A stretch of DNA of 64,000 bases, from assembly GCA_902526795.1 (NCBI GenBank), contig CABZMF010000001.1, positions 199,458 through 263,457 of the forward strand, given 5' to 3'. This DNA comes from an uncultured Fidelibacterota bacterium. GTDB taxonomy: Bacteria; Fidelibacterota; Marinisomatia; Marinisomatales; Marinisomataceae. Shown in pieces: positions 37,462-47,913 of this stretch (positions within the stretch are counted from its first letter, which is position 1; each line of letters starts with the position of its first letter). The translations under genes and the position numbers were made by a program. The notes below the pieces were generated by a model. That model was not told the origin of the DNA, made no database searches, and saw only the letters and a list, made by a program, of their open reading frames with translations.

Positions 37462-40400
37462 TTATCTTACAATAACCATTTTCTTGGTTTTATTGTAATC
37501 ACTTTGACCATCAACTTTAGCTCTAAGTTGATAGAAATATACTCCACTACTTACTTTTTCACCATCGTCATTTCTACCATCCCATAAAGTAGTATGTTGT
37601 CCAGCACCTTTATCACCTTCATCTAAGGTTCTTACAAGTGTACCGACAGTATTGTAGATAAGTATTTCTACATCAACGGTATTTACCATTAGTGATGGTA
37701 TATCATACATGATAGTGGTTTGATTGTTAAATGGATTTGGATAATTCTGATACAAATTGAATTCGTCAGGATTTCTTAGTTGCATCATACCATTTCCAAT
37801 CATACCCTCCGCATTGAAGAGTTGATAGTTTAATTCTAAATCACTGGAAATAGGAGCGCCGTCAATATTGATTACAATTTTACCATCATTTGAAGATAGG
37901 TTTCCGAATTCAACTTCATAATATTCGTTTTCTTCATTTTCATTTTCTAGAACTAGGTAGCCTTGTTTTTGTTCAGTATTGAAATCATAAATATTGTTGG
38001 TATTTCCAATTTCAAATCTTCCAGCAGTTACACCCTCAGGAAGTTCAATAATGATTTGATTACCTAAAATTTCTGCTTCAAATTCAGTTGGCATAATTTC
38101 AATATCTTCAACAGTTCTTCCCTGTGCTTTGGTCCAAAGCCACATTCTAGAAAATACACTTAAATCTTTCACATCATTTACGTTGTCAGGAGTAGAAACA
38201 AGATATGGAACAGTTCCAGTTGCAGGACCAAGATCTACTGAGCTATCAACTCCAGCATTAGGCCATGCATTTACAAATACATTGAGGTCTTCAATGTCTA
38301 TATCATTATCGCTATCATAATCACCTAGATATGAAACGTAAGTGGTCACATTCTGGGAAACAAGATCAGAGTTATTATAACCACCATCTCGAGCGTATAA
38401 ATATACGGTAAGTTCTGTCTGATCTGGTAAAGATAGTCCTGTTAAAGTAAGTTCATCACCAGCAGCAATTACTGCAGATCCATATGAAGTAGTTGAACTC
38501 CCTATATCAAGAACATAGTCTACTATTCCCGTATCATCGCTAAATCCATCAGCAGTAATACTTATTTCAGTTAAAGATTTCAAGTAGCCATCAACAAGGT
38601 TATCAATTGTGAACGTTCCTGCAGTAGGTGGTGATGTATCAAGCAAAAAGGATATTTCATCACTTAAAGTTTCATTTCCATCAGTATCAACTGCACTCAC
38701 TCTAAAAAACCATTCTTCTCCCGAGGTAGCAGGATGGACATAGTTATCAATAGAATACGTTTGTGTATATACAAAAGTAGTATCTGGCCATGGAGTAGTT
38801 GAAGGAGATGGTTCAAAATGTGTTGAATTTACATCACCTAAATTACCTTGGCCCAAGAGTGTACTAGAGTCAGCTGTAAAACCTTCTGTTAAACTTCCAT
38901 ATACATTATTTGACGCAAAATCAGGTTCACCATTTCTATTCCAATACAATTCAATTGCGTCAACTTGAGCTCCGCCATCAATATCTCTTAAAGCAACAAT
39001 TCCTTGTGGAGCAAGGGGGGCACCATCAGCACTTAATTGTCCTGCAGTTATTCTAAAATTATCAAAAAAAGCATATTGTTGATTAGTTGTTTTAACATGT
39101 ATTGCAATTCTTATTTTGGATCCTGCATATGCAGATAAATCATATGATTGAGGAGTCCAAGTACCAGTATTTTCATCAACTATATTTGCTAGAGTAACTG
39201 TAAATTCTTCTGGAGCGAGACCACCATTTGGAGATAAAAGGACATCATATGTTTCGCTTCCTGCATTCATATTAGTGTAAAAACTTAAAATATTATCTGT
39301 ACCTGGTCTTAAGTGTAAAATAGGACTTACAACCCAGTCGTCAGCATTACCGGCACCTGCCATTCCAAGACCAGCCATCCAGTGACTTCCTTCTGCAGCA
39401 CCGTTTCCAGCTATGTAATACCACCAACTAAATGCATCAGCATCATTATTTTGATTAAAAATAGTCCATGAATAAGTATCTCTTCCCATGAAGTCAATTC
39501 TGCCATAAGGCGTAGATTCAAATCCTTCTTCGTATAAGGTATCTTGAACAGCTGTAGCCCAAATCAAATTATTTTTAGTGGTAACACTGTTATTAGTCCC
39601 ATCATCAACTGTAAGAGATATTGAATATCTTCCAGCGTCAGCAAAAGTATGAGTAGGGTTTTGTTCAGTACTACTTGAACCGTCACCAAAGTCCCATGCC
39701 CAAGAGGTTACATTCCCCGTTGAACGATCAACAAAATCAACTTCTAAGGGAAATACTCCTGAAGTTTTACTTGGTGAAAATGCAGCATTTAAAGGCGCAG
39801 TTGAGGTAAAACCAGGTGATGTAAATTGACCTCGACCAAATGTTCCAGCAGACATTTCACCATTACTATTCATTGCAAGCATGTCAACTCGAGTATTGGC
39901 TAGCCCGTCATTAGATGGATTCCAAACTACTGAAGAACTAGTAATATCATCTGATACCCAAACACCGACTTCTGTAGCAATAGCGACTTGATTAAAATTA
40001 TCTCTATTGTATAAACCCCACCTAACAGGCATATCAGGTAGATCACCTTCAACATTTACCCATCCATTTGCTCCACCCCCAGATATTGTTTCATAAATAG
40101 AATCAATACCATAGTTAGATAATGTTATTAAAATTTGATTATCATCTTTTCCAACATCAATTGATGAGATATAACCTGTAGTTGCTCCAGGACTGATTTC
40201 AGTAATTGTATAATTATCAGTATGAGCGTCTATAATTTTAAAAACTCTACCACCTGCAGTAGCTACAAATAATACCCCACTGGTATGTGGAGAAACTTTA
40301 TAGGCTGAAGCACCAGAACCTAAATTAATATTTATAAAATCGTGATTGGTTAATGCAGTATAATCTTTTTGCCTCAGAATACTATTATTATCAAAAGTAG

Positions 40401-42165
40401 CATACAATGCTTTGTTTACTCCATCAATAACGCTTGGGTTGATGAAAAATCCTGCATCTGTTCCATCGGCATTTGTTACATTTGAGTAAAGACCAAAAGA
40501 TGATCCGCCGTTTGTACTTCGAACAATATTTCCATACGTAGTAGCACTAAATTGATAAGTTGGATCTACTTGATCAATATGGGTATAAGCTCCATCTCCT
40601 CCATAAACTTCTAATCCTTCTTGCTTCCCAGCAGTATTTAATCTCCATGTTCCATTATCTTGAGCACCACCTAAGACATAATCTGACGTTGTAGGATGAA
40701 TTGCAGTTGAATAAAATTGAGTTGTAACCATATTATCATTTTTCATTGTAAATGTATTTCCACCATCAGTAGTCAGAAAAACACCACCGTCGTTGGAAAA
40801 AAGAATTTTATCACTATCGATAAAAACAATATTGTGATGATCTGCATGCACGTATGGTTGTGAAAAACCTGTACCTCTCCATTCTGAGATTTCTGTCCAA
40901 TTAGTTCCTGAGTCAGTTGACTTAAAGATTGATAGTGCTCCAGCTGCATATATTGTATTTGGATCATTTGGATCAATGCCTAACAATCCCCAATAATCCA
41001 TTGAACCTTGGTAATCTCCAAAAGGATTACCATTTTCATCTTCCGCAATGCTTATTGGAGTCCACGTACTCCCAGCATCAGAAGATTTTGCAATATAAGT
41101 TATGTAACCTGTAGTTAAGCTTTCCATCATTACATACAAAACATTTGGATCGGAAGGAGATACATCAACAAATGTTCTATCAAAACTACCTAAGGCTCCC
41201 AAATCAAATTGTGTAAATGTTATACCATCATCGGAATAGAAAACTTGTCCACCACCTTCATTAAAAGTATTTGTTCTAGTACCTACAATAAGCCTGTTAT
41301 TTGAATCAAGTTCTAAATCAGTTACATGATGATTAGAACCAGCAGAAATTTCTCCCAAAACTTCTGTCCAAGTTGAACCGCCATCTGAAGACTTCTGTAA
41401 TCCATTTATACCAGAATACGAACCGTTAGAAGCGGCTCTTCCTCCACCTGCATATACTACACCAACACCATTTTCATTTCTAACAATTATCGTATCTATG
41501 AATTTTAGTTCGGTAGATGAAGAAAGTTGACTCCAAGTTGCACCTCCATCAGATGTTTTCCAAATTCCTTGTCCTTTTAATCCATGACCTCTTCTTTCAC
41601 CAGTACCAACATAAATGATATTGGCATCAGTAGGATCTGATGCAACGCAAGTAATAGCTAGATTATCCCAAAAATCTGATACTTTTGACCATTCAGAAGT
41701 TGAACTTTCGATATTTGTAATTGACCATAATCCACCACTTACACCTGCAGCCCAAACTTTTGCATTTGAATCAAAATTTCCATCAAGCATTAAAGCCCTA
41801 GTTCTACCAGCTTGTTTACTTGGTCCACGCTCAGTCCAATTTATTTCGCTTTGTCTATTAAAATAGGATAAACTATTTAATTTTGCATTTTTGATTTTTA
41901 ATGCTTCGAGCGCTCTTTCAGATGGAATTGTATTTGAACTTGGATCACGAGTCATTAAAAAATCATGATAATTTTTTAAATCTGGTCTAAGTTTTTTTGG
42001 AAGACTTTTGACATAACTTCTTTTGAAATATTTATCACTTAAATAATCACTTATATATGCTTCATTTTTAACTTTTTTATATTCATAAATTATGTTTTTA
42101 GCTGGTTGGTATGCTAAAAAACTAAAAATTAAAACAAACGCTAATATGTATATATTTTTTCTCAT
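37462..42165 (-). CDS. 1567-aa secreted multidomain protein: Asp-box (BNR) beta-propeller, PKD, cleaved-adhesin-like domain, Ig/FN3-like, dockerin-like, T9SS-type C-terminal domain
   Basis: Signal peptide; at least 6 Asp-boxes (e.g. WKTSDGGATW, FKSTDSGTNW); PKD WDFGDG; DDWVVSP adhesin motif; GDYDSDNDIDIEDL and PDNVNDVKDL Ca-loops; YQNYPNPFN...SGVYFY...KKMVIVR tail. Confidence 0.85.
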   Translation of the reverse strand: MRKNIYILAFVLIFSFLAYQPAKNIIYEYKKVKNEAYISDYLSDKYFKRSYVKSLPKKLRPDLKNYHDFLMTRDPSSNTIPSERALEALKIKNAKLNSLSYFNRQSEINWTERGPSKQAGRTRALMLDGNFDSNAKVWAAGVSGGLWSITNIESSTSEWSKVSDFWDNLAITCVASDPTDANIIYVGTGERRGHGLKGQGIWKTSDGGATWSQLSSSTELKFIDTIIVRNENGVGVVYAGGGRAASNGSYSGINGLQKSSDGGSTWTEVLGEISAGSNHHVTDLELDSNNRLIVGTRTNTFNEGGGQVFYSDDGITFTQFDLGALGSFDRTFVDVSPSDPNVLYVMMESLTTGYITYIAKSSDAGSTWTPISIAEDENGNPFGDYQGSMDYWGLLGIDPNDPNTIYAAGALSIFKSTDSGTNWTEISEWRGTGFSQPYVHADHHNIVFIDSDKILFSNDGGVFLTTDGGNTFTMKNDNMVTTQFYSTAIHPTTSDYVLGGAQDNGTWRLNTAGKQEGLEVYGGDGAYTHIDQVDPTYQFSATTYGNIVRSTNGGSSFGLYSNVTNADGTDAGFFINPSVIDGVNKALYATFDNNSILRQKDYTALTNHDFININLGSGASAYKVSPHTSGVLFVATAGGRVFKIIDAHTDNYTITEISPGATTGYISSIDVGKDDNQILITLSNYGIDSIYETISGGGANGWVNVEGDLPDMPVRWGLYNRDNFNQVAIATEVGVWVSDDITSSSVVWNPSNDGLANTRVDMLAMNSNGEMSAGTFGRGQFTSPGFTSTAPLNAAFSPSKTSGVFPLEVDFVDRSTGNVTSWAWDFGDGSSSTEQNPTHTFADAGRYSISLTVDDGTNNSVTTKNNLIWATAVQDTLYEEGFESTPYGRIDFMGRDTYSWTIFNQNNDADAFSWWYYIAGNGAAEGSHWMAGLGMAGAGNADDWVVSPILHLRPGTDNILSFYTNMNAGSETYDVLLSPNGGLAPEEFTVTLANIVDENTGTWTPQSYDLSAYAGSKIRIAIHVKTTNQQYAFFDNFRITAGQLSADGAPLAPQGIVALRDIDGGAQVDAIELYWNRNGEPDFASNNVYGSLTEGFTADSSTLLGQGNLGDVNSTHFEPSPSTTPWPDTTFVYTQTYSIDNYVHPATSGEEWFFRVSAVDTDGNETLSDEISFLLDTSPPTAGTFTIDNLVDGYLKSLTEISITADGFSDDTGIVDYVLDIGSSTTSYGSAVIAAGDELTLTGLSLPDQTELTVYLYARDGGYNNSDLVSQNVTTYVSYLGDYDSDNDIDIEDLNVFVNAWPNAGVDSSVDLGPATGTVPYLVSTPDNVNDVKDLSVFSRMWLWTKAQGRTVEDIEIMPTEFEAEILGNQIIIELPEGVTAGRFEIGNTNNIYDFNTEQKQGYLVLENENEENEYYEVEFGNLSSNDGKIVINIDGAPISSDLELNYQLFNAEGMIGNGMMQLRNPDEFNLYQNYPNPFNNQTTIMYDIPSLMVNTVDVEILIYNTVGTLVRTLDEGDKGAGQHTTLWDGRNDDGEKVSSGVYFYQLRAKVDGQSDYNKTKKMVIVR

Positions 42166-42170
42166 CTTTT

Positions 42171-43220
42171 CTACTCACTAATTAAAATATATGCTTCAAC
42201 AGCATCATTCACAGTAATATCTCCACCATCAACATCAAGCATCAAACTACCAGAGCCTCCAGCTGATGGATCTAGATTAATACCTACTAATGTATCAACC
42301 GAACCATTTAAAGTAAAGTTTACGGTTGCAATTACCCCATCTCCATCATTTGATGGAAGATCACTTGATAGAGATGATGTATAAATAATAAGTCTATTTA
42401 CTCCAGGATTACTTGTGGTAACTATTAGTGGATCAGTATCTCCCTTTAAAAAGTCTCCTGCTGTTACACTGTCATATGTCATTAAACTATTGTCGTAAAA
42501 TATTACAACTTGAGCAGCTGCCATTCCGGTAACTCCCAAAACTTTAACGTCAAGTGAAAACGATGATCCGCTTGAAACTTCAAGATATTTAGGATCTAAA
42601 ACAAATGCAGGGGTTTGAACATCTTCAACTGTAATAAATGCAGGAGCAGTATATGTTACAGTCCCACCATCTCCAGTAACAGATAAACTTACATCAAATG
42701 TTCCAGATGTAGTATAAGTGTGTATTGGATTTGTGTCAGAGCTTGTATTACCATCCCCAAAGTCCCAAGAAGAGGATGAGTATCTTATTGACTCGTTTGT
42801 GAACTCAACTCTTAAATCTTTTTTACCTGAAGTGGTATTAGCTGAAAATACGGCTGTAGGGGGTGTTGGTGAAACATTTATATAATTAGTTTTAGTTTCA
42901 ACATCAGTACCATTGGGACCAGTTGCAGTAAGTGAGACAGTATATGTTCCAGCTTCATTGTATGTATATTGTACAAGAACTCCTGATGCATCTAATATAC
43001 CATCACCATTAAAATCCCACTCATGTCCAGTAGTATTTGTTGATGTAGAAGTAAATGTAACAGCTAATGGAGCTCCACCGCTTAATGGATTTGCTGTAAA
43101 AAGTGCGACAGGAGGATCATTGCTAGGACCAGTGCCTCCGGAATCATCTCCACCGCCTCCACCGCCACCGCAGTTTATAAGGAATAAAAGTATAAATAGT
43201 GATAATGCTTTTTTGAACAT
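42171..43220 (-). CDS. Lipoprotein with poly-Gly linker, two PKD domains and a C-terminal cohesin-like domain
   Basis: Lipobox LINC followed by G7; WDFNGDG and WDFGDG PKD motifs; cohesin pattern F.LDV.V..V..MAAAQ..I.YD..L.....V.AGDFL...GDGVIATVNF. Confidence 0.82.
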   Translation of the reverse strand: MFKKALSLFILLFLINCGGGGGGGDDSGGTGPSNDPPVALFTANPLSGGAPLAVTFTSTSTNTTGHEWDFNGDGILDASGVLVQYTYNEAGTYTVSLTATGPNGTDVETKTNYINVSPTPPTAVFSANTTSGKKDLRVEFTNESIRYSSSSWDFGDGNTSSDTNPIHTYTTSGTFDVSLSVTGDGGTVTYTAPAFITVEDVQTPAFVLDPKYLEVSSGSSFSLDVKVLGVTGMAAAQVVIFYDNSLMTYDSVTAGDFLKGDTDPLIVTTSNPGVNRLIIYTSSLSSDLPSNDGDGVIATVNFTLNGSVDTLVGINLDPSAGGSGSLMLDVDGGDITVNDAVEAYILISE

Positions 43221-43282
43221 TAGAAAATGTACGATAAAACATTGCTTGTTATCAATGATTAATTAACAATAAACATAAAATG

Positions 43283-44365
43283 TTAGATTCGTGTTATTTT
43301 CACATTTCTTGAAGATAAATATGATATTAAAAACTCAATGCATTTATCATTTTCACCCACAAATTCAGGAGGGTAGACTCCTTTTTTCTCCCAAAGATTA
43401 TTTAATAGCATATTTATAGTTGCAGTTGCTGTAAAGCCAGTTGTTCTGGCCATGGATGAAGATTTTGAATTAATATCATTTTCGTCATAAAGATGATAAT
43501 GAATGTTTTTTTCTTCCGAAAAAATATTAATGTTCAAAACTGTAAATTCAGGTTCATCATCTTCCAGTCTCCACTCTTCAAAGAGTTTATTAATAGTGCT
43601 TTCAAAATTATTATTATCAAATAATCCTTTATTTATCATGGACTTTATTAATTCAGCATGCCCAGGATACCTAAGAGTTTTTTCTTTCATATTTGGAATG
43701 TGCTTCATTGTTTTTATTAGTGATCGTAATCCATCAGTATTAAATGCTTCTAATTTACCCACACGATCAATTTCTATCACTTTAATATCAGTTAGGGCCG
43801 GTTTTGTAATTATTTTTGAATCTATCATCATCCTTGCTGGACGAGTATACTCTTCTATAACATCAATTGGAGAGAAAGGCGCTTTATAATTGAATGGAGG
43901 TATTGGATTTTTTGGAAGTCCTCCAACAGAATAATCAAAAGAGTGAATTTTTATTTTATTGTTCCAATACCCTAGAAGAAAATTTGGAATTCCAGGAGCA
44001 ACACCAGCATCGACAATTGCGGTAACACCTTTTTCTTTAGCTAAGTCATCAAGCTGTAAAATATTTTCAGGTGAAAAAGAAATATCTACAACATCTTTTC
44101 CACATTCTATAATTGTTTGCAGTGCTTCATATCCTAAAAACCCAGGAACTGCTAAAAGAACAATATCAGCATCACTTATCCATAAACTCAGCGAATCTTT
44201 ATCTTGTACATCAATTTTATTTATGTGTATGGATTCATTTTGTTCTTTAATTGATTCTAATAAATCTAGATTTGAATCTCCTAAGTGAACTTGATATTCT
44301 TTGGATAATTCAAGCGCCATGGTTTTACCAACTAGACCAGCACCCACTTGAAAAATTTTTTTCAT
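43283..44365 (-). CDS. Saccharopine dehydrogenase family protein (lysine 6-dehydrogenase-like)
   Basis: GAGLVG, DAGVAPG, VGGLP..P.PP..YKAPFSP..V.EEY.RPA, EAFNTDGL, KTLRYPGH. Confidence 0.88.
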   Translation of the reverse strand: MKKIFQVGAGLVGKTMALELSKEYQVHLGDSNLDLLESIKEQNESIHINKIDVQDKDSLSLWISDADIVLLAVPGFLGYEALQTIIECGKDVVDISFSPENILQLDDLAKEKGVTAIVDAGVAPGIPNFLLGYWNNKIKIHSFDYSVGGLPKNPIPPFNYKAPFSPIDVIEEYTRPARMMIDSKIITKPALTDIKVIEIDRVGKLEAFNTDGLRSLIKTMKHIPNMKEKTLRYPGHAELIKSMINKGLFDNNNFESTINKLFEEWRLEDDEPEFTVLNINIFSEEKNIHYHLYDENDINSKSSSMARTTGFTATATINMLLNNLWEKKGVYPPEFVGENDKCIEFLISYLSSRNVKITRI

Positions 44366-44374
44366 TGACAGTTG

Positions 44375-44448
<74 letters not shown>

Positions 44449-44455
44449 AAAATTA

Positions 44456-44668
44456 TTACTTATATAATAAGGCTAAAGGAATAATTACCAAATAGCCAAC
44501 TAATAATAGAAGTGGAGAAATTACTAAGCTTTGAAAGCTATTAACATCTCCCAGGTACATTATCAAATAACCCACAATTATAACGAAAACTCCAAAACCA
44601 AACAAAAGATAATTTTTTCTTTTATAAGGCCATAAAAACTTCACTTTTGTTCTACTATCTTCTTTCAT
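44456..44668 (-). CDS. Small 2-TM protein (DUF3098-like)
   Basis: RKNYLLFGFGVFVIIVGYLIM...SP.LLLVGYLVIIP.ALLYK; start moved to the Met at 44668. Confidence 0.7.
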   Translation of the reverse strand: MKEDSRTKVKFLWPYKRKNYLLFGFGVFVIIVGYLIMYLGDVNSFQSLVISPLLLLVGYLVIIPLALLYK

Positions 44669-44761
44669 AATCGTTAAGTTAGTTGCGATATTTATTCTTT
44701 GCAAAAATATTATTACATCCATTGATTTGAAAATATAAATAAGGTAATTTCTAGCCCTTAT

Positions 44762-45751
44762 ATGAAAGTAATGAATACCACAAATTCTTTGGTTTTAGCA
44801 ACATTTATTATCGTTATAACGATGCTTTATTCTATAAACAATAGAACGATAAATCCTACAATTTTAACAATTGAAAAAGGAATGTCTTTAAGTACTGTTT
44901 CTCAATTATTACATCAAAAAAATATAATTGTAAGCCAGGATATTTTTAAAGCAAAGGTTATGTTAAGAGGTTTAGCTTCAAAAATACCAACCGGTAAATT
45001 TTTGCTAGAAGGAAAGGTTTCTGATTCAGTTTTAATTGATTCAATTTTTTATGAAGGTCCAATCAAATTAAAACTTACTATTCCGGAAGGTTTACAATCT
45101 GATCAAATATTTCAAAATATTAATTTGTTGCTTAAAACTAATTATGATTTTAAAAAATATTTTAATTCTAAAGAGATAATACAAGATTTTAATATTAAAG
45201 GTAAAAGTCTTGAGGGTTACCTTTATCCAGATACATATTATTTATATCACGATTCTTTGCCAGATGAGATCATTAATATTTTACTTACAGAATTTTGGAA
45301 GCGATTTGATAAAAATTTAATTAATAGAACGAATCAACTAGGACTTTCAGTACATCAGGTTGTAACTTTGGCGTCGATTATTGAAGGCGAAGCTATGTTA
45401 AGTAGCGAGCGTAAAACAATTTCTTCAGTATATCACAATAGATTAAAAATAAATATGAAGTTACAAGCAGATCCAACAATACAATATATCATTCCTGGAC
45501 CCCCTAAGACGTTATCCAATAGAGATTTAAGAATTAAATCTGATTATAATACTTACCAAAATTATGGTTTGCCACCAGGTCCCATTAATAATCCAGGCAT
45601 TGAATCAATTATAGCTGCGCTTTATCCAGAGGATACAAATTTTTTATTTTTTGTGGCTCAAGGTGACGGTTCACACGCTTTCACAACAAACGAAAAGGAT
45701 CATGAAGAGGCTAAAAGGATTTATAAAATTAATAAAAGAAATAATAGATGA
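44762..45751 (+). CDS. mltG: Endolytic transglycosylase MltG
   Basis: LEGYLYPDTY, LASIIE.E, NRL...M.LQADPT, YNTY...GLPPGPI.NPG. Confidence 0.95.
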   Translation: MKVMNTTNSLVLATFIIVITMLYSINNRTINPTILTIEKGMSLSTVSQLLHQKNIIVSQDIFKAKVMLRGLASKIPTGKFLLEGKVSDSVLIDSIFYEGPIKLKLTIPEGLQSDQIFQNINLLLKTNYDFKKYFNSKEIIQDFNIKGKSLEGYLYPDTYYLYHDSLPDEIINILLTEFWKRFDKNLINRTNQLGLSVHQVVTLASIIEGEAMLSSERKTISSVYHNRLKINMKLQADPTIQYIIPGPPKTLSNRDLRIKSDYNTYQNYGLPPGPINNPGIESIIAALYPEDTNFLFFVAQGDGSHAFTTNEKDHEEAKRIYKINKRNNR

Positions 45752-47913
45752 AATTAAAAGATTTAAATACTCAACAACTAGAAGCAGTTCAAATAGTTGA
45801 CAAACCAGTGTTAGTTTTTGCAGGAGCAGGAAGCGGAAAAACTCGTGTCCTCACTTACAAGGTTTGGTATTTGATTAAGGAGAAGCTTTTTAAGCCCCAA
45901 GAAATTTTAGCACTTACTTTTACCAATAAAGCCGCCTCAGAAATGAAGCTAAGAATTCAAGAAAATATATCTAGTGAGGGAGTAAATGTGGGAACATTTC
46001 ATTCCGTAGGAGCTCGAATGTTGCGAATGAATATTTCATCTCTTAAAGAAGGATATAATTCAAGTTTTACCATTTATGATACATCAGATCAAAAAGCAGT
46101 TATAAAAGAAGTTTTAGAAAGTTTAAATCTCTCTGAGTTTAAAGAATTAAATGTGAGTTTTCTTAAATCACAAATTGACAAGTTTAAAAATACTAACACC
46201 TCTATTAAAAAAATGGAGCAAGATGCTCAAACGTTCGAAGATGAAAAGATTATTGAGGTTTATAAAGCTTATTGTGATAGATTAAAGTCAAATAATGCAC
46301 TTGATTTCAACGATTTACTTTTACTTCCAATAAGACTATTAAAAGAAAATTCTAAAATTTTAAATTTTTACCAAAAAACTTGGAAATATGTACTAGTTGA
46401 TGAATTTCAGGATACAAATTCCCCTCAATTTGAAATAGTTTCGCTTCTAGCTGGAAAACATCAAAATATTACTGTAGTAGGAGATGATGACCAATCAATT
46501 TATGGTTGGAGAGGAGCTAACATAGATAATATTTTAACCAATTTTCAAGATACTTTTGCAAAAAATATCGAAATAAAACTTATAAAAAATTATAGATCAA
46601 CACAAAGAATCTTAGATGGTGCATGGTCTGTTGTTTCCAATAACAAAAATAGAGCTGAAAAAAAATTAGAAGCTACTAGAGGCAAAGGTGAAAAAATTTC
46701 GCTTATTTCAGCTGGAAGTGATGAAGAAGAATCAAACGCAATTTGTGACTCAATAAAATCAGAAATAAAACTTAACAAAAATACATTTAAGGACTTTGCA
46801 GTACTATATAGAACTAATGCTCAGTCCAGGTCTATTGAGCAAGCAATGGTAAAAGAAGGTTTGCCTTATAACATTGTTGGAGGAACAAAGTTTTATGACA
46901 GAAAAGAAATAAAAGACGTTTTAGCCTATTTAACTTTAGTAGCAAATAATAATGATGATATTGCACTAAGAAGAATAATTAATTTTCCAGTAAGGGGTAT
47001 TGGAGAAAAATCAATTAATATGTTTGTTGATTTAGCCATGAAGAAGAAAATTTCTTTATTTGACAGTTTAACATTTTGTAGAGATTTAAAATTGAGAGGT
47101 AAACAGCAAGATTCAATCGAAAATTTTTATACTTCTATTAAAAAATTTAGTGAATTATTAGAAACTTTAGATCCAAAAGAATTGATTAGAACCCTACTAG
47201 AAGAATTCAATATTGAAAATTATTATAAGAATAATCCCGTTGAGCAGGATCGTTATGACAACATTCAAGAATTAAAAACTTCTGTAGATAAATTTTCTGA
47301 TCAAGTTGGCGGTAACTTAAAAGATTTCCTTCAAGAAATTTCTCTCTTTACTGATATTGATGAATGGGATGATAAAGAGAATTCAATAACGCTGATGACA
47401 GTTCATGCTGCTAAAGGACTTGAATTTCCTACAGTATTTATTAGCGGTTTAGAACAGGGTCTTTTTCCTCTTATTAGAATTGATGATGGACCCGATCAAA
47501 TGGAAGAAGAAAGAAGACTGTTTTACGTTGCTGTTACACGAGCTATGAATCAAGTTTACCTTTTAAATGCAAAATACAGAAGGCGATTTGGAGCTATGAA
47601 TACAAACTCATTTGTTCAATCAGATTTTTTGAGTGAAATTGATGAGGATGTGGTAAAATTAAAATCATACAAATCAGTATATACTAGAAGAGTTGTAGGA
47701 ACTGGTAGCCAGAAAAAAATTAAAATTTCTAGAACAGTGACTGAGTTTGATGATTTCAAAATTGGAGATAAAGTTCAGCATAATCTTTTTGGTGTTGGAA
47801 CCATTCTTGTTTTAAGTGGCACTGGAGAGAATCAAAAAGTTGGTGTTGAATTTGATGGAGGTTTAAGAAAAAAATTGATTGTTAAGTACGCTCGATTAAA
47901 AAAAATAGATTAA
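45748..47913 (+). CDS. pcrA: ATP-dependent DNA helicase PcrA/UvrD
   Basis: AGAGSGKT, TFTNKAA.EM, VDEFQDTN, VGDDDQSIY.WRGA, NYRST, MTVHAAKGLEF, EEERRLFYVA.TRA, C-terminal tudor-like domain. Confidence 0.93.
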   Translation: MKLKDLNTQQLEAVQIVDKPVLVFAGAGSGKTRVLTYKVWYLIKEKLFKPQEILALTFTNKAASEMKLRIQENISSEGVNVGTFHSVGARMLRMNISSLKEGYNSSFTIYDTSDQKAVIKEVLESLNLSEFKELNVSFLKSQIDKFKNTNTSIKKMEQDAQTFEDEKIIEVYKAYCDRLKSNNALDFNDLLLLPIRLLKENSKILNFYQKTWKYVLVDEFQDTNSPQFEIVSLLAGKHQNITVVGDDDQSIYGWRGANIDNILTNFQDTFAKNIEIKLIKNYRSTQRILDGAWSVVSNNKNRAEKKLEATRGKGEKISLISAGSDEEESNAICDSIKSEIKLNKNTFKDFAVLYRTNAQSRSIEQAMVKEGLPYNIVGGTKFYDRKEIKDVLAYLTLVANNNDDIALRRIINFPVRGIGEKSINMFVDLAMKKKISLFDSLTFCRDLKLRGKQQDSIENFYTSIKKFSELLETLDPKELIRTLLEEFNIENYYKNNPVEQDRYDNIQELKTSVDKFSDQVGGNLKDFLQEISLFTDIDEWDDKENSITLMTVHAAKGLEFPTVFISGLEQGLFPLIRIDDGPDQMEEERRLFYVAVTRAMNQVYLLNAKYRRRFGAMNTNSFVQSDFLSEIDEDVVKLKSYKSVYTRRVVGTGSQKKIKISRTVTEFDDFKIGDKVQHNLFGVGTILVLSGTGENQKVGVEFDGGLRKKLIVKYARLKKID

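What the first reader, a model, noticed from the sequence alone, without database searches (positions are those of the whole stretch)
37462..43220. Cohesin-dockerin operon: lipoprotein mini-scaffoldin next to a dockerin-bearing, T9SS-tailed propeller enzyme
Seen: two co-oriented genes 5 nt apart. Gene 1 is lipobox-Gly7-PKD-PKD plus a C-terminal cohesin-like domain (about 42171-42611). Gene 2 carries near its C-terminus (about 38140-38330) a duplicated Ca-loop plus helix: GDYDSDNDIDIEDLNVFVNAW (Asp at loop positions 1,3,5,9,12) and PDNVNDVKDLSVFSRMW, i.e. dockerin architecture with an insertion in the second loop, followed by a T9SS-type sorting tail. Known: cohesin-dockerin pairs assemble cellulosomes in anaerobic Firmicutes and occur sporadically elsewhere with mostly unknown roles; T9SS cargo is normally anchored via A-LPS. 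Inference: a membrane-anchored lipoprotein captures the secreted enzyme/adhesin through cohesin-dockerin binding, a minimal cellulosome-like surface display system in a marine FCB bacterium, possibly docking other dockerin proteins encoded elsewhere.
Basis: partly seen in the sequence, partly recalled or inferred. Interest (0 to 1): 0.85.

Follow-up and report, generated by a model that had tools for sequence, protein, structure and literature searches.

The report
Lipoprotein cohesin paired with T9SS cargo
A marine SAR406 bacterium encodes a lipid-anchored cohesin protein next to a giant secreted surface protein with a previously unannotated dockerin-like module, and the same pairing recurs across several phyla, which suggests a protein-based way of holding type IX-secreted proteins on the cell.

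Summary
Two co-oriented genes lie 5 nt apart in a Marinimicrobia (SAR406/Fidelibacterota) chromosome.

- **Gene 1** is a lipoprotein-like PKD-PKD-cohesin protein. Pfam Cohesin scores above threshold, and the AF2 model superposes on type I cohesins at TM ~0.8.
- **Gene 2** is a 1567-aa BNR-propeller/PKD/Ig-rich protein with a T9SS type A tail and, upstream of it, a 77-aa Ca-loop/helix module.
- **The module** fails Pfam Dockerin on its own. It nevertheless defines a large unannotated family (669 clusters at 50% identity). The best PDB sequence and fold matches to that family are true dockerins, but none is statistically strong.

The strongest evidence is genomic. In unrelated loci from Marinimicrobia, Poribacteria and other lineages, module-bearing T9SS cargo genes sit next to a cohesin lipoprotein gene, often with a DUF5683 membrane-protein gene, and the gene order varies.

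One new point: the domain between the module and the T9SS tail is itself a degenerate cohesin.

The cargo proteins look like adhesins, not CAZymes, so "cellulosome-like" overstates the case. Binding is untested. I class this as a new variant of a known kind, of good interest.

The parts
42171..43220 (-). Gene 1: 349-aa lipoprotein-like PKD-PKD-cohesin protein (the anchor partner)
   Evidence: ORF. Pfam PKD_4 x2 and Cohesin. 849 homologues, all with PKD plus cohesin. AF2 model pLDDT 84.8.
43113..43220 (-). Signal peptide, lipobox-like L-I-N-C (Cys17), Gly7 run and acidic/Gly linker (aa 1-36)
   Evidence: Sequence. Ile15, Cys17 and Gly18-22 are invariant in 48 homologues. This stretch is disordered in the AF2 model. 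Cohesin partners in other loci have canonical lipoboxes.
42627..43112 (-). Two PKD (Ig-like) spacer domains (aa ~37-198)
   Evidence: Pfam PKD_4 at 84.7 bits, two stretches. PDB PKD hits.
42174..42611 (-). Cohesin domain (aa 204-349)
   Evidence: PF00963 at 44.5 bits, above the 24.1 cut-off. Foldseek target-normalised TM ~0.8, rmsd 2.0-2.6 A against 1aoh, 2vn5_A, 2ccl_A, 1anu and 2xdh. Profile hits on solved cohesins 5nrk_A and 4uyp_A at E 2e-4 to 8e-4.
37462..42165 (-). Gene 2: 1567-aa Sec/T9SS-secreted surface protein (the cargo)
   Evidence: ORF. Domain hits. N-terminal signal-peptide-like MRKNIYILAFVLIFSFLAYQ.
39796..41868 (-). BNR/Asp-box beta-propeller region (aa ~100-790)
   Evidence: Six S/T-x-D-x-G-x-T-W/F motifs at aa 204-557. 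Sub-threshold F510_1955 glycosylhydrolase hit, 56 bits against a 175 cut-off. PDB 3b7f BNR protein at E=4.6e-6.
39049..39783 (-). PKD domain (aa 795-864) and choice-of-anchor J domain (aa 879-1039)
   Evidence: Pfam PKD_4 at 64.3 bits. NCBIfam NF038128 at 68.5 bits, above the 30 cut-off.
38110..38340 (-). Dockerin-like Ca-loop/helix module (aa 1276-1352): canonical loop 1 plus helix, then a second loop split by a G-P-x-x-G-x-x-P hairpin, then a second helix
   Evidence: No PF00404 hit. Family of 669 clusters. 17 of the top 19 PDB profile hits are dockerins. 17 of 66 members hit PF00404. AF2 pLDDT 91.5. Best Foldseek hit is dockerin 2ozn_B, query-normalised TM 0.53, not significant. Ligand-position conservation.
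37744..38109 (-). Degenerate cohesin-derived beta domain (aa 1353-1474; aligned core aa ~1375-1446)
   Evidence: No direct Pfam hit. The positional equivalents in 31 of 101 carriers hit a cohesin HMM at E<0.01. The window copy is recruited by conservative iteration at E=1.7e-9, with reciprocal hits on true cohesins. hhalign 97.6% for all segments and 85.8% for the hard subset, against 0.2-0.5% for controls.
37465..37743 (-). T9SS type A C-terminal sorting domain (aa 1475-1567)
   Evidence: TIGR04183 at 25.2-25.7 bits, above the 23 cut-off. FlgD_ig at 41.6 bits and CHU_C at 29.2 bits. Resembles the CTDs of PorU and PorZ.

Best explanation
Genes 1 and 2 form a co-transcribed two-component surface-display unit. 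It is one member of a widespread cassette family found in Marinimicrobia/Fidelibacterota and in other phyla that have T9SS-tailed proteins.

**Proposed steps (all inferred).**
1. Gene 2 is exported by Sec, translocated by the type IX secretion system through its type A C-terminal domain, and then loses that domain.
2. The mature protein stays on the cell because its Ca-binding dockerin-like module, about 130 residues upstream of the cleaved tail, binds the cohesin domain of gene 1.
3. Gene 1 is tethered to the outer membrane by an N-terminal lipid, a Gly-rich linker and two PKD spacers.

**What is shown.** The domain identities, the cassette architecture, and the conserved genomic pairing across lineages.

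**What is inferred.** Physical binding, its Ca dependence, surface exposure of the lipoprotein, and retention as the purpose.

The pairing is essentially one dedicated cohesin per cargo. It is not a multi-enzyme scaffold. The passenger of gene 2 (BNR propeller, PKD, choice-of-anchor J, Ig-like region) is more likely a binding or adhesive surface protein than a proven enzyme.
For: **Gene 1 is a cohesin.**

**Gene 2 has a T9SS tail.**

**The module is a discrete domain.**
- It is about 70 aa, single-copy, and sits a median of 222 aa from the C-terminus of proteins 300-4700 aa long.
- Loop 1 has D/N/E at positions 1/3/5/9/12 in 99/90/84/89/100% of 140 representatives.
- The second half keeps D/N/E at positions 5/9/12 (99/97/100%), plus a 95% conserved acidic residue before an invariant GPxxGxxP insertion.
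- The family profile's best PDB matches are dockerins: 17 of 19, E 0.006-0.65.
- 17 of 66 members hit PF00404, best E 3.5e-5.
- The confident AF2 model's best structural neighbour is a dockerin bound to its cohesin, 2ozn_B.

**Linkage.**
- The pair is kept in all orthologous loci down to 52% cohesin identity.
- In 7 of 8 informative divergent carriers, a cohesin or cohesin-like lipoprotein gene lies within two genes.
- In 828 kb around 86 module genes, all 18 stand-alone cohesin ORFs lie on the same strand upstream of the module gene. 13 abut or overlap it. They fall into 10 clusters below 60% identity.
- Gene order differs in Poribacteria and in another high-GC lineage, yet the components persist.
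- Partner cohesins uniformly have lipoboxes.
- L104's partner has the same lipobox / Gly-rich / Ig-spacer / cohesin layout as gene 1.
Against: - The window's own module does not reach any curated dockerin model. PF00404 gives no hit, and NF041540 gives 15.8-18.4 bits against a cut-off of 29.
- The PDB sequence E-values are marginal, and the Foldseek E-values are not significant, 2.1 and 4.9.
- No complex model or binding test could be run.
- The gene 1 lipobox has Asn at -1.
- The side of the membrane that the lipoprotein faces is unknown. Under the E. coli rule (own knowledge), the acidic residue at +2 in the small homologues would mean inner-membrane retention.
- No T9SS core genes lie in the window.
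- Some module carriers have no adjacent cohesin: L106 and the L075/L076 family.
- The cargo's own cohesin-derived domain means binding in cis, or cargo-to-cargo binding, could compete with or replace the proposed interaction in trans.
Confidence: 0.55

Rival explanations
1. Secretion adaptor or holdase. The cohesin lipoprotein, together with the DUF5683 protein where present, binds the module in the periplasm. It pilots or holds its cognate giant cargo at the T9SS translocon and does not anchor it outside. This would resemble the cargo-specific, adjacently encoded PorP/SprF-type partners of type B CTD cargo in Flavobacterium (own knowledge).
For: - The gene pairing is 1:1 and tight, often with overlapping reading frames.
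- The module sits at a fixed distance from the CTD.
- An acidic residue follows the lipobox Cys in the partners. Under the E. coli rule this would favour a periplasm-facing location.
- A periplasmic-type CsgG/LpoB-like domain occurs in the third gene.
Against: - Cohesin-dockerin pairs characterised so far act extracellularly (own knowledge).
- Gene 1 has a long Gly linker and two PKD spacers. These are typical of a stalk that projects a domain away from a membrane.
- In Bacteroidota, acidic residues after the lipobox Cys are a surface-export signal (own knowledge).
Confidence: 0.15
2. Self-assembling array or fibre. Each cargo carries a dockerin-like module followed directly by a cohesin-derived domain. 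Cargo molecules therefore chain head-to-tail (the Doc of one into the Coh of the next). The lipoprotein, which has a cohesin only, serves as the membrane-proximal primer or anchor.
For: - The Doc-like plus Coh-like tandem is conserved across the family. The cis cohesin is clear in 17-31 of 101 carriers, down to E=2.3e-23.
- 3 of 39 carriers hit Pfam Cohesin outright. One is annotated 'cohesin domain-containing protein'.
- The passengers are adhesin- or fibre-like repeats.
Against: - In the window's gene 2 the cis domain is strongly degenerate. Directly it scores E=3.8 and has no Pfam hit. This suggests loss of binding, or a purely structural role like that of an X-module.
- Nothing shows that the cis cohesin recognises the module.
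Confidence: 0.15
3. No direct interaction. The module is only a Ca-binding EF-hand-type structural element that stiffens the stalk of T9SS cargo. The cohesin lipoproteins are independent surface proteins that happen to be co-regulated.
For: - The module does not meet curated dockerin thresholds.
- 14 of 66 members also hit generic EF-hand models.
- Some carriers lack a neighbouring cohesin.
Against: - Cohesin genes occur nowhere else in 828 kb of flanks except at the head of module genes.
- The association survives gene-order rearrangement and phylum-level divergence.
- The top PDB sequence and fold neighbours are specifically dockerins, not calmodulin-type EF-hands.
Confidence: 0.1

Closest known systems
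Clostridial cellulosome type I cohesin-dockerin pairs (e.g. C. thermocellum CipA cohesin with Xyn10B dockerin; PDB 1ohz, 2ccl, 1aoh)
   Same: The gene 1 domain has the type I cohesin fold, target-normalised TM ~0.8. The first half of the module is a canonical dockerin/EF-hand loop plus helix, and it aligns to repeat 1 of these dockerins.
   Different: - The host is Gram-negative.
- The anchor has a single cohesin on a lipoprotein, not a multi-cohesin scaffoldin anchored by SLH domains or sortase.
- The dockerin-like module is internal and is followed by a cohesin-like domain and a T9SS tail.
- The second Ca loop is split by a 13-residue hairpin.
- The cargo is adhesin-like, not a CAZyme.
Non-cellulosomal cohesin-dockerin pairs: C. 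perfringens NagH-NagJ (2ozn) and Archaeoglobus fulgidus cohesin (2xdh)
   Same: They are the best structural neighbours. 2ozn_B matches the module, and 2xdh is among the cohesin hits. In these cases too, cohesin-dockerin is used outside cellulose degradation.
   Different: Those modules are recognised by the standard Pfam models. They have no T9SS context and no lipoprotein partner.
Predicted FCB-group cohesin-dockerin systems: Cloacimonadota 'Ca. Stygibacter' (PMC8542988) and Chlorobium chlorochromatii Cag_2037/Cag_2038 (bioRxiv 10.64898/2026.03.19.712371)
   Same: These are also FCB-group bacteria. In Stygibacter the scaffoldin has a T9SS CTD. In Chlorobium, adjacent genes encode a cohesin and a C-terminal dockerin on an Ig-repeat protein, and the pair is modelled as a surface-retention pair.
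   Different: - Those cases use canonical, InterPro-detectable dockerins.
- Stygibacter has a multi-cohesin scaffoldin with enzyme cargo.
- Chlorobium exports by T1SS.
- Neither describes a lipoprotein cohesin, the split-loop module family, the Doc-Coh-CTD cassette or the DUF5683 partner.
T9SS cargo attachment in Bacteroidota: A-LPS linkage by PorU/PorZ, and type B CTD cargo with adjacent PorP/SprF-like partners (own knowledge)
   Same: These systems address the same problem of keeping T9SS cargo on the cell. The SprB/SprF case shares the logic of a dedicated partner encoded next to each giant cargo.
   Different: Here the proposed tether is a protein-protein cohesin/dockerin-like contact with a lipoprotein. 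It is neither a covalent glycolipid link nor a PorP-family barrel.

Membership tests
Cohesin (Pfam PF00963) | Match to the family HMM above the curated threshold | tested here: met
   44.5 bits against a cut-off of 24.1, aa 215-315 of gene 1. All 120 listed homologues carry PF00963.
Cohesin (Pfam PF00963) | Nine-stranded beta-sandwich (jelly-roll) fold superposable on solved cohesins | tested here: met
   AF2 pLDDT 84.8. Foldseek target-normalised TM 0.77-0.83 and rmsd 2.0-2.6 A over ~150 columns against 1aoh, 2vn5_A, 2ccl_A and 1anu. The sequence profile hits 5nrk_A and 4uyp_A at E 2e-4 to 8e-4.
Cohesin (Pfam PF00963) | Binds a dockerin | not testable with these tools
No multimer tool was available.
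Dockerin type I (Pfam PF00404) | Match to the family HMM above the curated threshold | tested here: not met
   No hit for gene 2 or for the isolated segment at E<=10. At family level, 17 of 66 members give weak hits, best E 3.5e-5. NCBIfam dockerin_GC scores 15.8-18.4 bits against a cut-off of 29.
Dockerin type I (Pfam PF00404) | Two tandem ~22-residue repeats, each a 12-residue Ca-binding loop (Asp/Asn at positions 1, 3, 5, 9, 12) followed by a helix | tested here: inconclusive
   Repeat 1 is fully canonical, with D/N/E at 99/90/84/89/100% of those positions. Repeat 2 keeps positions 5, 9 and 12 (99/97/100%). Positions 1 and 3 are replaced by an upstream conserved acidic residue (95%) followed by an invariant GPxxGxxP hairpin insertion.
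Dockerin type I (Pfam PF00404) | Small two-helix Ca-stabilised fold superposable on solved dockerins | tested here: inconclusive
   AF2 pLDDT 91.5, with helices at 17-26 and 58-73. The best Foldseek hit is dockerin 2ozn_B, query-normalised TM 0.53 and rmsd 2.3 A over 64 columns, but E=2.1. 8x39_B ranks fifth. The PDB profile search returns 17 dockerins among 19 hits at E 0.006-0.65, aligned to repeat 1 only.
Dockerin type I (Pfam PF00404) | Functional and genomic association with cohesin-bearing partners | tested here: met
   Adjacent cohesin lipoprotein genes occur in 10 independent clusters besides the window's. All 18 stand-alone cohesin ORFs in 828 kb sit at the head of module genes. The association also holds in Poribacteria.
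T9SS type A sorting domain (TIGR04183 / PF18962) | C-terminal ~80-90 aa domain matching the curated model | tested here: met
   TIGR04183 scores 25.2-25.7 bits against a cut-off of 23. CHU_C scores 29.2 against 27, and FlgD_ig 41.6 against 27. PF18962 itself scores 23.2, below its cut-off of 27. 33 of 39 family carriers have the tail.
T9SS type A sorting domain (TIGR04183 / PF18962) | Genome encodes the T9SS core machinery (SprA, PorK-N, PorU/V) | not tested
   None of these genes lies among the large ORFs of the window, which are housekeeping genes. The whole genome was not available to these tools.
Bacterial lipoprotein | Signal peptide ending in a lipobox [LVI][ASTVI][GAS]-Cys | tested here: inconclusive
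   Gene 1 has L-I-N-C, with a non-canonical Asn at -1. Cys17 is invariant in 48 homologues. Partner cohesins elsewhere have canonical lipoboxes: F-I-S-C, L-L-S-C, L-I-G-C, C-V-G-C.
Cellulosome / scaffoldin system | A multi-cohesin scaffoldin that gathers several dockerin-bearing carbohydrate-active enzymes | tested here: not met
   There is one cohesin per partner, and the pairing is mostly 1:1. Carrier passengers are Ig, fn3, cadherin, beta-helix and LamG domains, not CAZyme families. The gene 2 propeller gives only sub-threshold glycosidase similarity.

The most novel reading that the evidence does not exclude
The Doc-like module, cohesin-derived domain and T9SS tail, together with a cohesin-only lipoprotein and a DUF5683 membrane protein, would constitute a previously unrecognised T9SS-coupled surface-assembly system. 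The system would span several phyla: Fidelibacterota, Latescibacterota, Gemmatimonadota and Poribacteria. In it, giant adhesins are anchored non-covalently to a lipoprotein primer. Where the cis cohesin is intact, they would polymerise Doc-into-Coh to form arrays or fibres. This would be a protein-only alternative to A-LPS attachment.
Probability: 0.2. Interest if true: 0.85.

Novelty: new variant of a known kind. Interest (0 to 1): 0.7.

Why it matters
- **An open question about T9SS cargo.** How cargo stays on the cell outside the well-studied Bacteroidota is not known. A-LPS attachment has been shown only in a few species. This cassette offers a concrete, testable protein-protein mechanism.
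- **Ecological reach.** SAR406/Marinimicrobia is among the most abundant deep-ocean bacterial lineages, and related cassettes occur in at least three further phyla.
- **An annotation gap.** A family of about 670 sequence clusters of dockerin-like modules is currently annotated only as 'hypothetical', 'T9SS sorting domain-containing' or as repeat proteins. Their cohesin partners are annotated as 'hypothetical' or 'PKD repeat protein'.
- **Use of the domain pair.** If the mechanism holds, cohesin-dockerin use extends from enzyme scaffolding to dedicated anchoring of adhesin-type surface proteins in diderm bacteria. It would also supply new orthogonal Coh/Doc pairs for protein engineering.

Tried and rejected
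- **Single-sequence and narrow-profile searches of the module.** Against Pfam and the PDB these found nothing useful. A broad family profile was needed.
- **The search for homologous proteins.** With the gene 2 C-terminus it returned only 18 mostly fragmentary hits. With the module profile it returned one hit, because the word index is too coarse.
- **Promoter and terminator scan.** It was at chance level, 30 sites found against 28.7 expected.
- **First test of the inter-domain region as a cohesin.** Against the narrow gene 1 profile, hhalign gave 2.5%, and only 2 of 27 members hit Pfam. This was superseded by broader profiles with controls.
- **Cellulosome reading.** Considered and rejected on architecture and cargo type.
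- **Chance co-linearity from synteny alone.** Considered, because the close orthologues are fully syntenic. Rejected after finding the pairing in non-syntenic loci and in other phyla.
- **Peer et al. 2009.** The paper (PMC3035643) is not held in the library.

Full report
**1. What is in the window.**

Two co-oriented minus-strand ORFs are separated by 5 nt (CTTTT). Gene 1 is 42171-43220 (349 aa). Gene 2 is 37462-42165 (1567 aa). There is no terminator-like site in the gap, and the promoter scan is at chance level.

The surrounding window is ordinary chromosome:
- SecA, SecD, AspRS, ATP synthase alpha and beta subunits, ribosomal protein S1, SerRS and a TonB-dependent receptor;
- KpsF-type SIS/CBS isomerase, an SDR, EamA, saccharopine dehydrogenase, YceG, UvrD and Fur, by comparison with annotated orthologous contigs.

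The organism is a member of Marinimicrobia/SAR406. The cohesin domain is 99% identical to that of single-cell genome SCGC AAA298-D23. In NCBI taxonomy the name Candidatus Neomarinimicrobiota resolves to phylum Fidelibacterota in the FCB group.

**2. Gene 1.**

The N-terminus is MFKKALSLFILLFLINC followed by Gly7 and an acidic/Gly linker. Ile15, Cys17 and the Gly run are invariant in 48 homologues. The lipobox is non-canonical, with Asn at -1. I therefore treat lipidation as likely but unproven.

Two PKD domains follow. After them comes a Pfam Cohesin match above threshold, 44.5 bits against 24.1.

An AF2 model built on 48 homologues is confident, with pLDDT 84.8. Its C-terminal domain superposes on type I cohesins (1aoh, 2vn5_A, 2ccl_A, 1anu) and on the archaeal non-cellulosomal cohesin 2xdh. 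Target-normalised TM is about 0.8 and rmsd is 2.0-2.6 A over about 150 columns. A sequence profile of the domain also hits solved cohesins at E 2e-4 to 8e-4. The cohesin assignment is solid.

**3. Gene 2.**

From N- to C-terminus:
- a signal-peptide-like N-terminus;
- a BNR/Asp-box propeller region, with six Asp boxes at aa 204-557;
- a PKD domain;
- a choice-of-anchor J domain, 68.5 bits against a cut-off of 30;
- an uncharacterised region;
- the proposed dockerin at aa 1276-1352;
- a domain of about 120 aa;
- a T9SS type A tail, with TIGR04183 above its cut-off.

The only catalytic-family similarity is sub-threshold: F510_1955 at 56 bits against 175, and PDB 3b7f at E=4.6e-6. 'Propeller' is confirmed. 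'Enzyme' is not.

**4. Is the module a dockerin?**

By curated models, no. PF00404 gives nothing, even on the isolated segment. NCBIfam dockerin_GC is sub-threshold.

The segment is strongly conserved among orthologues. A profile of it recovers 669 clusters at 50% identity with E<=1e-3, of which 215 have E<=1e-10, out of 1.84 billion representatives. In these proteins the module is a discrete, single-copy unit of about 70 aa. It lies a median of 222 residues from the C-terminus of proteins 300-4700 aa long.

Four lines of evidence tie the module to dockerins:
- With a 66-member profile, 17 of the 19 best PDB matches are bona fide dockerins (E 0.006-0.65). All align to repeat 1.
- 17 of 66 members individually hit PF00404, best E 3.5e-5. 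14 hit EF-hand_1.
- Across 140 representatives, loop 1 has D/N/E at positions 1/3/5/9/12 in 99/90/84/89/100%. The second half keeps positions 5/9/12 (99/97/100%). It is preceded by a 95% conserved acidic residue and an invariant G-P-x-x-G-x-x-P insertion.
- AF2 folds the module confidently (pLDDT 91.5, pTM 0.82) as loop, helix, hairpin, loop, helix. Its best structural neighbour in the PDB is the dockerin of the C. perfringens NagH-NagJ cohesin-dockerin complex (2ozn_B), with query-normalised TM 0.53 and rmsd 2.3 A over 64 columns. A double dockerin (8x39_B) ranks fifth. The E-values, 2.1 and 4.9, are not significant.

My reading is that this is a divergent dockerin-like family not captured by current models. 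Membership in PF00404 is not demonstrated.

**5. Linkage, the decisive evidence.**

Close orthologues keep the pair. Those loci are fully syntenic, however, so that alone says little. I therefore looked at unrelated module carriers.

*Five carriers from the representatives search (973-3033 aa, different passengers).* Each has a small lipoprotein gene directly upstream. Three of these are Pfam Cohesin above threshold. Two are sub-threshold, E=8.4e-4 and 0.015.

*A metagenome scan with an independent sub-family motif.* This gave 80 further loci. In the 86 loci together (828 kb, 603 ORFs of at least 120 aa), an iteratively built cohesin HMM finds 18 stand-alone cohesin ORFs.
- All 18 lie on the same strand upstream of the module-bearing gene.
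- 13 abut or overlap it, 1 lies 696 nt away, and 4 have one large ORF in between.
- A 19th hit is a cohesin domain inside a cargo protein.
- The HMM was seeded with four of the first five upstream proteins plus the gene 1 cohesin, so the independent confirmations are the 13 ORFs in L023-L101.
- The cohesin domains fall into 10 clusters below 60% identity and are 21-34% identical to gene 1.

*Negatives with a visible upstream region.* These are one orthologous family of about 2180-aa proteins (L058, L071, L075, L076, L085), L038, and L106.

*Higher-GC lineages.* The components persist, but the gene order differs.
- In a Poribacteria contig (65% GC) the order is DUF5683/TPR protein, then cargo, then cohesin lipoprotein.
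- In another lineage (63% GC) the order is cargo, then a short DUF5683-type lipoprotein, then a protein with lipobox, Gly-rich linker, BACON domains and a C-terminal cohesin. That is the same layout as gene 1, with BACON in place of PKD.

*Taxonomic spread.* Named carriers come from Neomarinimicrobiota/Fidelibacterota, Latescibacterota, Gemmatimonadota and Poribacteria. None is annotated as a dockerin, and the partners are labelled 'hypothetical' or 'PKD repeat protein'.

An association that survives rearrangement and phylum-level divergence is strong evidence of functional coupling.

**6. Additional components.**

*A third gene.* It encodes about 330-370 aa, with a CsgG/LpoB-like N-terminal domain and a DUF5683 C-terminal region. 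It lies directly upstream of the cohesin gene in 8 of the 10 cohesin clusters. The window has no copy.

*A cohesin-derived domain in the cargo.* The domain between the module and the T9SS tail derives from a cohesin.
- The HMM built from lipoprotein cohesins hits this segment in 31 of 101 carriers at E<0.01 and in 17 at E<1e-5, best 2.3e-23.
- A conservative iterative search (Z=100,000) converges on 83 of 101 segments, including the window's. The window's copy enters at iteration 8 and ends at E=1.7e-9.
- The final HMM, built from these segments only, recognises true cohesins in return, down to E=9.6e-9. Among all window ORFs it hits only gene 2, and then gene 1.
- The aligned region is the domain core, not the flanks.
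- HH-suite gives 97.6% (P=4e-12) for all segments against true cohesins. It gives 85.8% (P=5e-6) for the 70 segments, including the window's, that are not detected directly. Negative controls give 0.2-0.5%.

The conserved C-terminal cassette is therefore a Doc-like module, then a Coh-derived domain, then the T9SS CTD. In gene 2 the cis cohesin is strongly degenerate.

**7. What the cargo proteins are.**

Of 39 full-length carriers, 33 have the T9SS tail. Their passengers are dominated by Ig-like, FN3, cadherin, beta-helix, LamG and PKD domains. Three hit Pfam Cohesin. This is an adhesin or surface-fibre repertoire, not a CAZyme set.

**8. Mechanism.**

The best-supported model (confidence 0.55) is a dedicated anchor. 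The cargo is secreted by the T9SS. After the tail is removed, it is retained by Ca-dependent binding of its dockerin-like module to the cohesin of the adjacently encoded lipoprotein.

Rival models are:
- a periplasmic adaptor or holdase role, by analogy with SprF/PorP partners of type B CTD cargo (own knowledge);
- Doc-into-Coh chaining of cargo, primed by the lipoprotein;
- no direct contact.

Binding, Ca dependence and the topology of the lipoprotein are inferred, not shown.

**9. Relation to what is known.**

Non-cellulosomal cohesins and dockerins are known to be widespread.

Within the FCB group there are two relevant inferences:
- a cellulosome-like complex with a T9SS-tailed scaffoldin in Cloacimonadota (PMC8542988);
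- an adjacent cohesin/dockerin gene pair modelled as a surface tether in Chlorobium chlorochromatii (bioRxiv 10.64898/2026.03.19.712371).

Full-text searches found nothing that links cohesin or dockerin to Marinimicrobia. They also found nothing that describes a lipoprotein-cohesin/T9SS-cargo cassette.

I therefore class this as a new variant of a known kind. The domain pair is familiar. The dockerin sub-family, the Doc-Coh-CTD cassette, the lipoprotein and DUF5683 partners and the T9SS coupling are new.

Noticed in passing
L017:770-1780, L019:682-1731, L022:6472-7455, L023:2202-3671, L094:2215-3321 and others: A third conserved gene of ~330-370 aa lies directly upstream of the cohesin lipoprotein gene in 8 of 10 cohesin clusters. 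It has a signal peptide, a CsgG/LpoB-like domain, a DUF5683 region with a PGxGQ(F/Y)Y motif, and a C-terminal beta-strand-like motif. The window has no copy. Function unknown.
   Followed up: partly
L021:385-10838 compared with window 37462-47913: A Marinimicrobia relative has the same flanking genes as the window (DUF3098, YceG, UvrD, Fur). At that chromosomal slot, however, it carries a different small cohesin lipoprotein (219 aa) and a different cargo (3033 aa). The slot appears to exchange cassettes.
   Followed up: no
L013 (REGJ01000060.1) and L016 (NHEX02000004.1): Contigs that carry this Marinimicrobia-type gene pair at 75-89% identity are deposited in MAGs labelled 'Nitrosopumilus sp.' and 'Flavobacteriales bacterium TMED96'. 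One module carrier (P0225) is labelled 'archaeon'. These look like binning contaminants.
   Followed up: no
L075:135-4315, L076:98-4258, L071:3-794: The main carrier family without an adjacent cohesin has, upstream, a large repeat protein. That protein ends in a conserved ...SLSDARDKTNIEDL...GFIAQELQ... region followed by a coiled coil. By eye this resembles the intramolecular chaperone domain of phage tail-spike and endosialidase proteins. Not tested with any tool.
   Followed up: no
L101:3593-10939 (cargo aa 1995-2127); P0274; 3 of 39 carriers: Some carriers contain a well-preserved cohesin domain in the same polypeptide as the dockerin-like module. One is annotated 'cohesin domain-containing protein'. 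This allows for self-association.
   Followed up: partly
L060, L081, L087, L094 (also L041, L043-L045, L056): In one sub-family the order is cohesin gene, then a ~1400-1900-aa ORF, then a ~680-690-aa ORF that carries the module. The split recurs in independent contigs. It may therefore be a genuine two-gene arrangement and not a frameshift.
   Followed up: no
L036:9521-10618, L037:8687-9790: A homologue of the DUF5683 third gene lies downstream of a module-bearing gene, with no detectable cohesin after it. This could be a neighbouring, divergent cassette.
   Followed up: no
L015:10146-14766 (BOWX01000001.1): In this MAG the orthologues of genes 1 and 2 are broken into short ORFs (96 aa and 207 aa pieces). 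This is likely frameshifts from assembly or sequencing error, not pseudogenes.
   Followed up: no
L004:11028-11035, and most small-cohesin cassettes: In many relatives the cohesin gene and the cargo gene overlap by 7-12 nt, whereas in the window they are 5 nt apart. This is consistent with translational coupling.
   Followed up: partly
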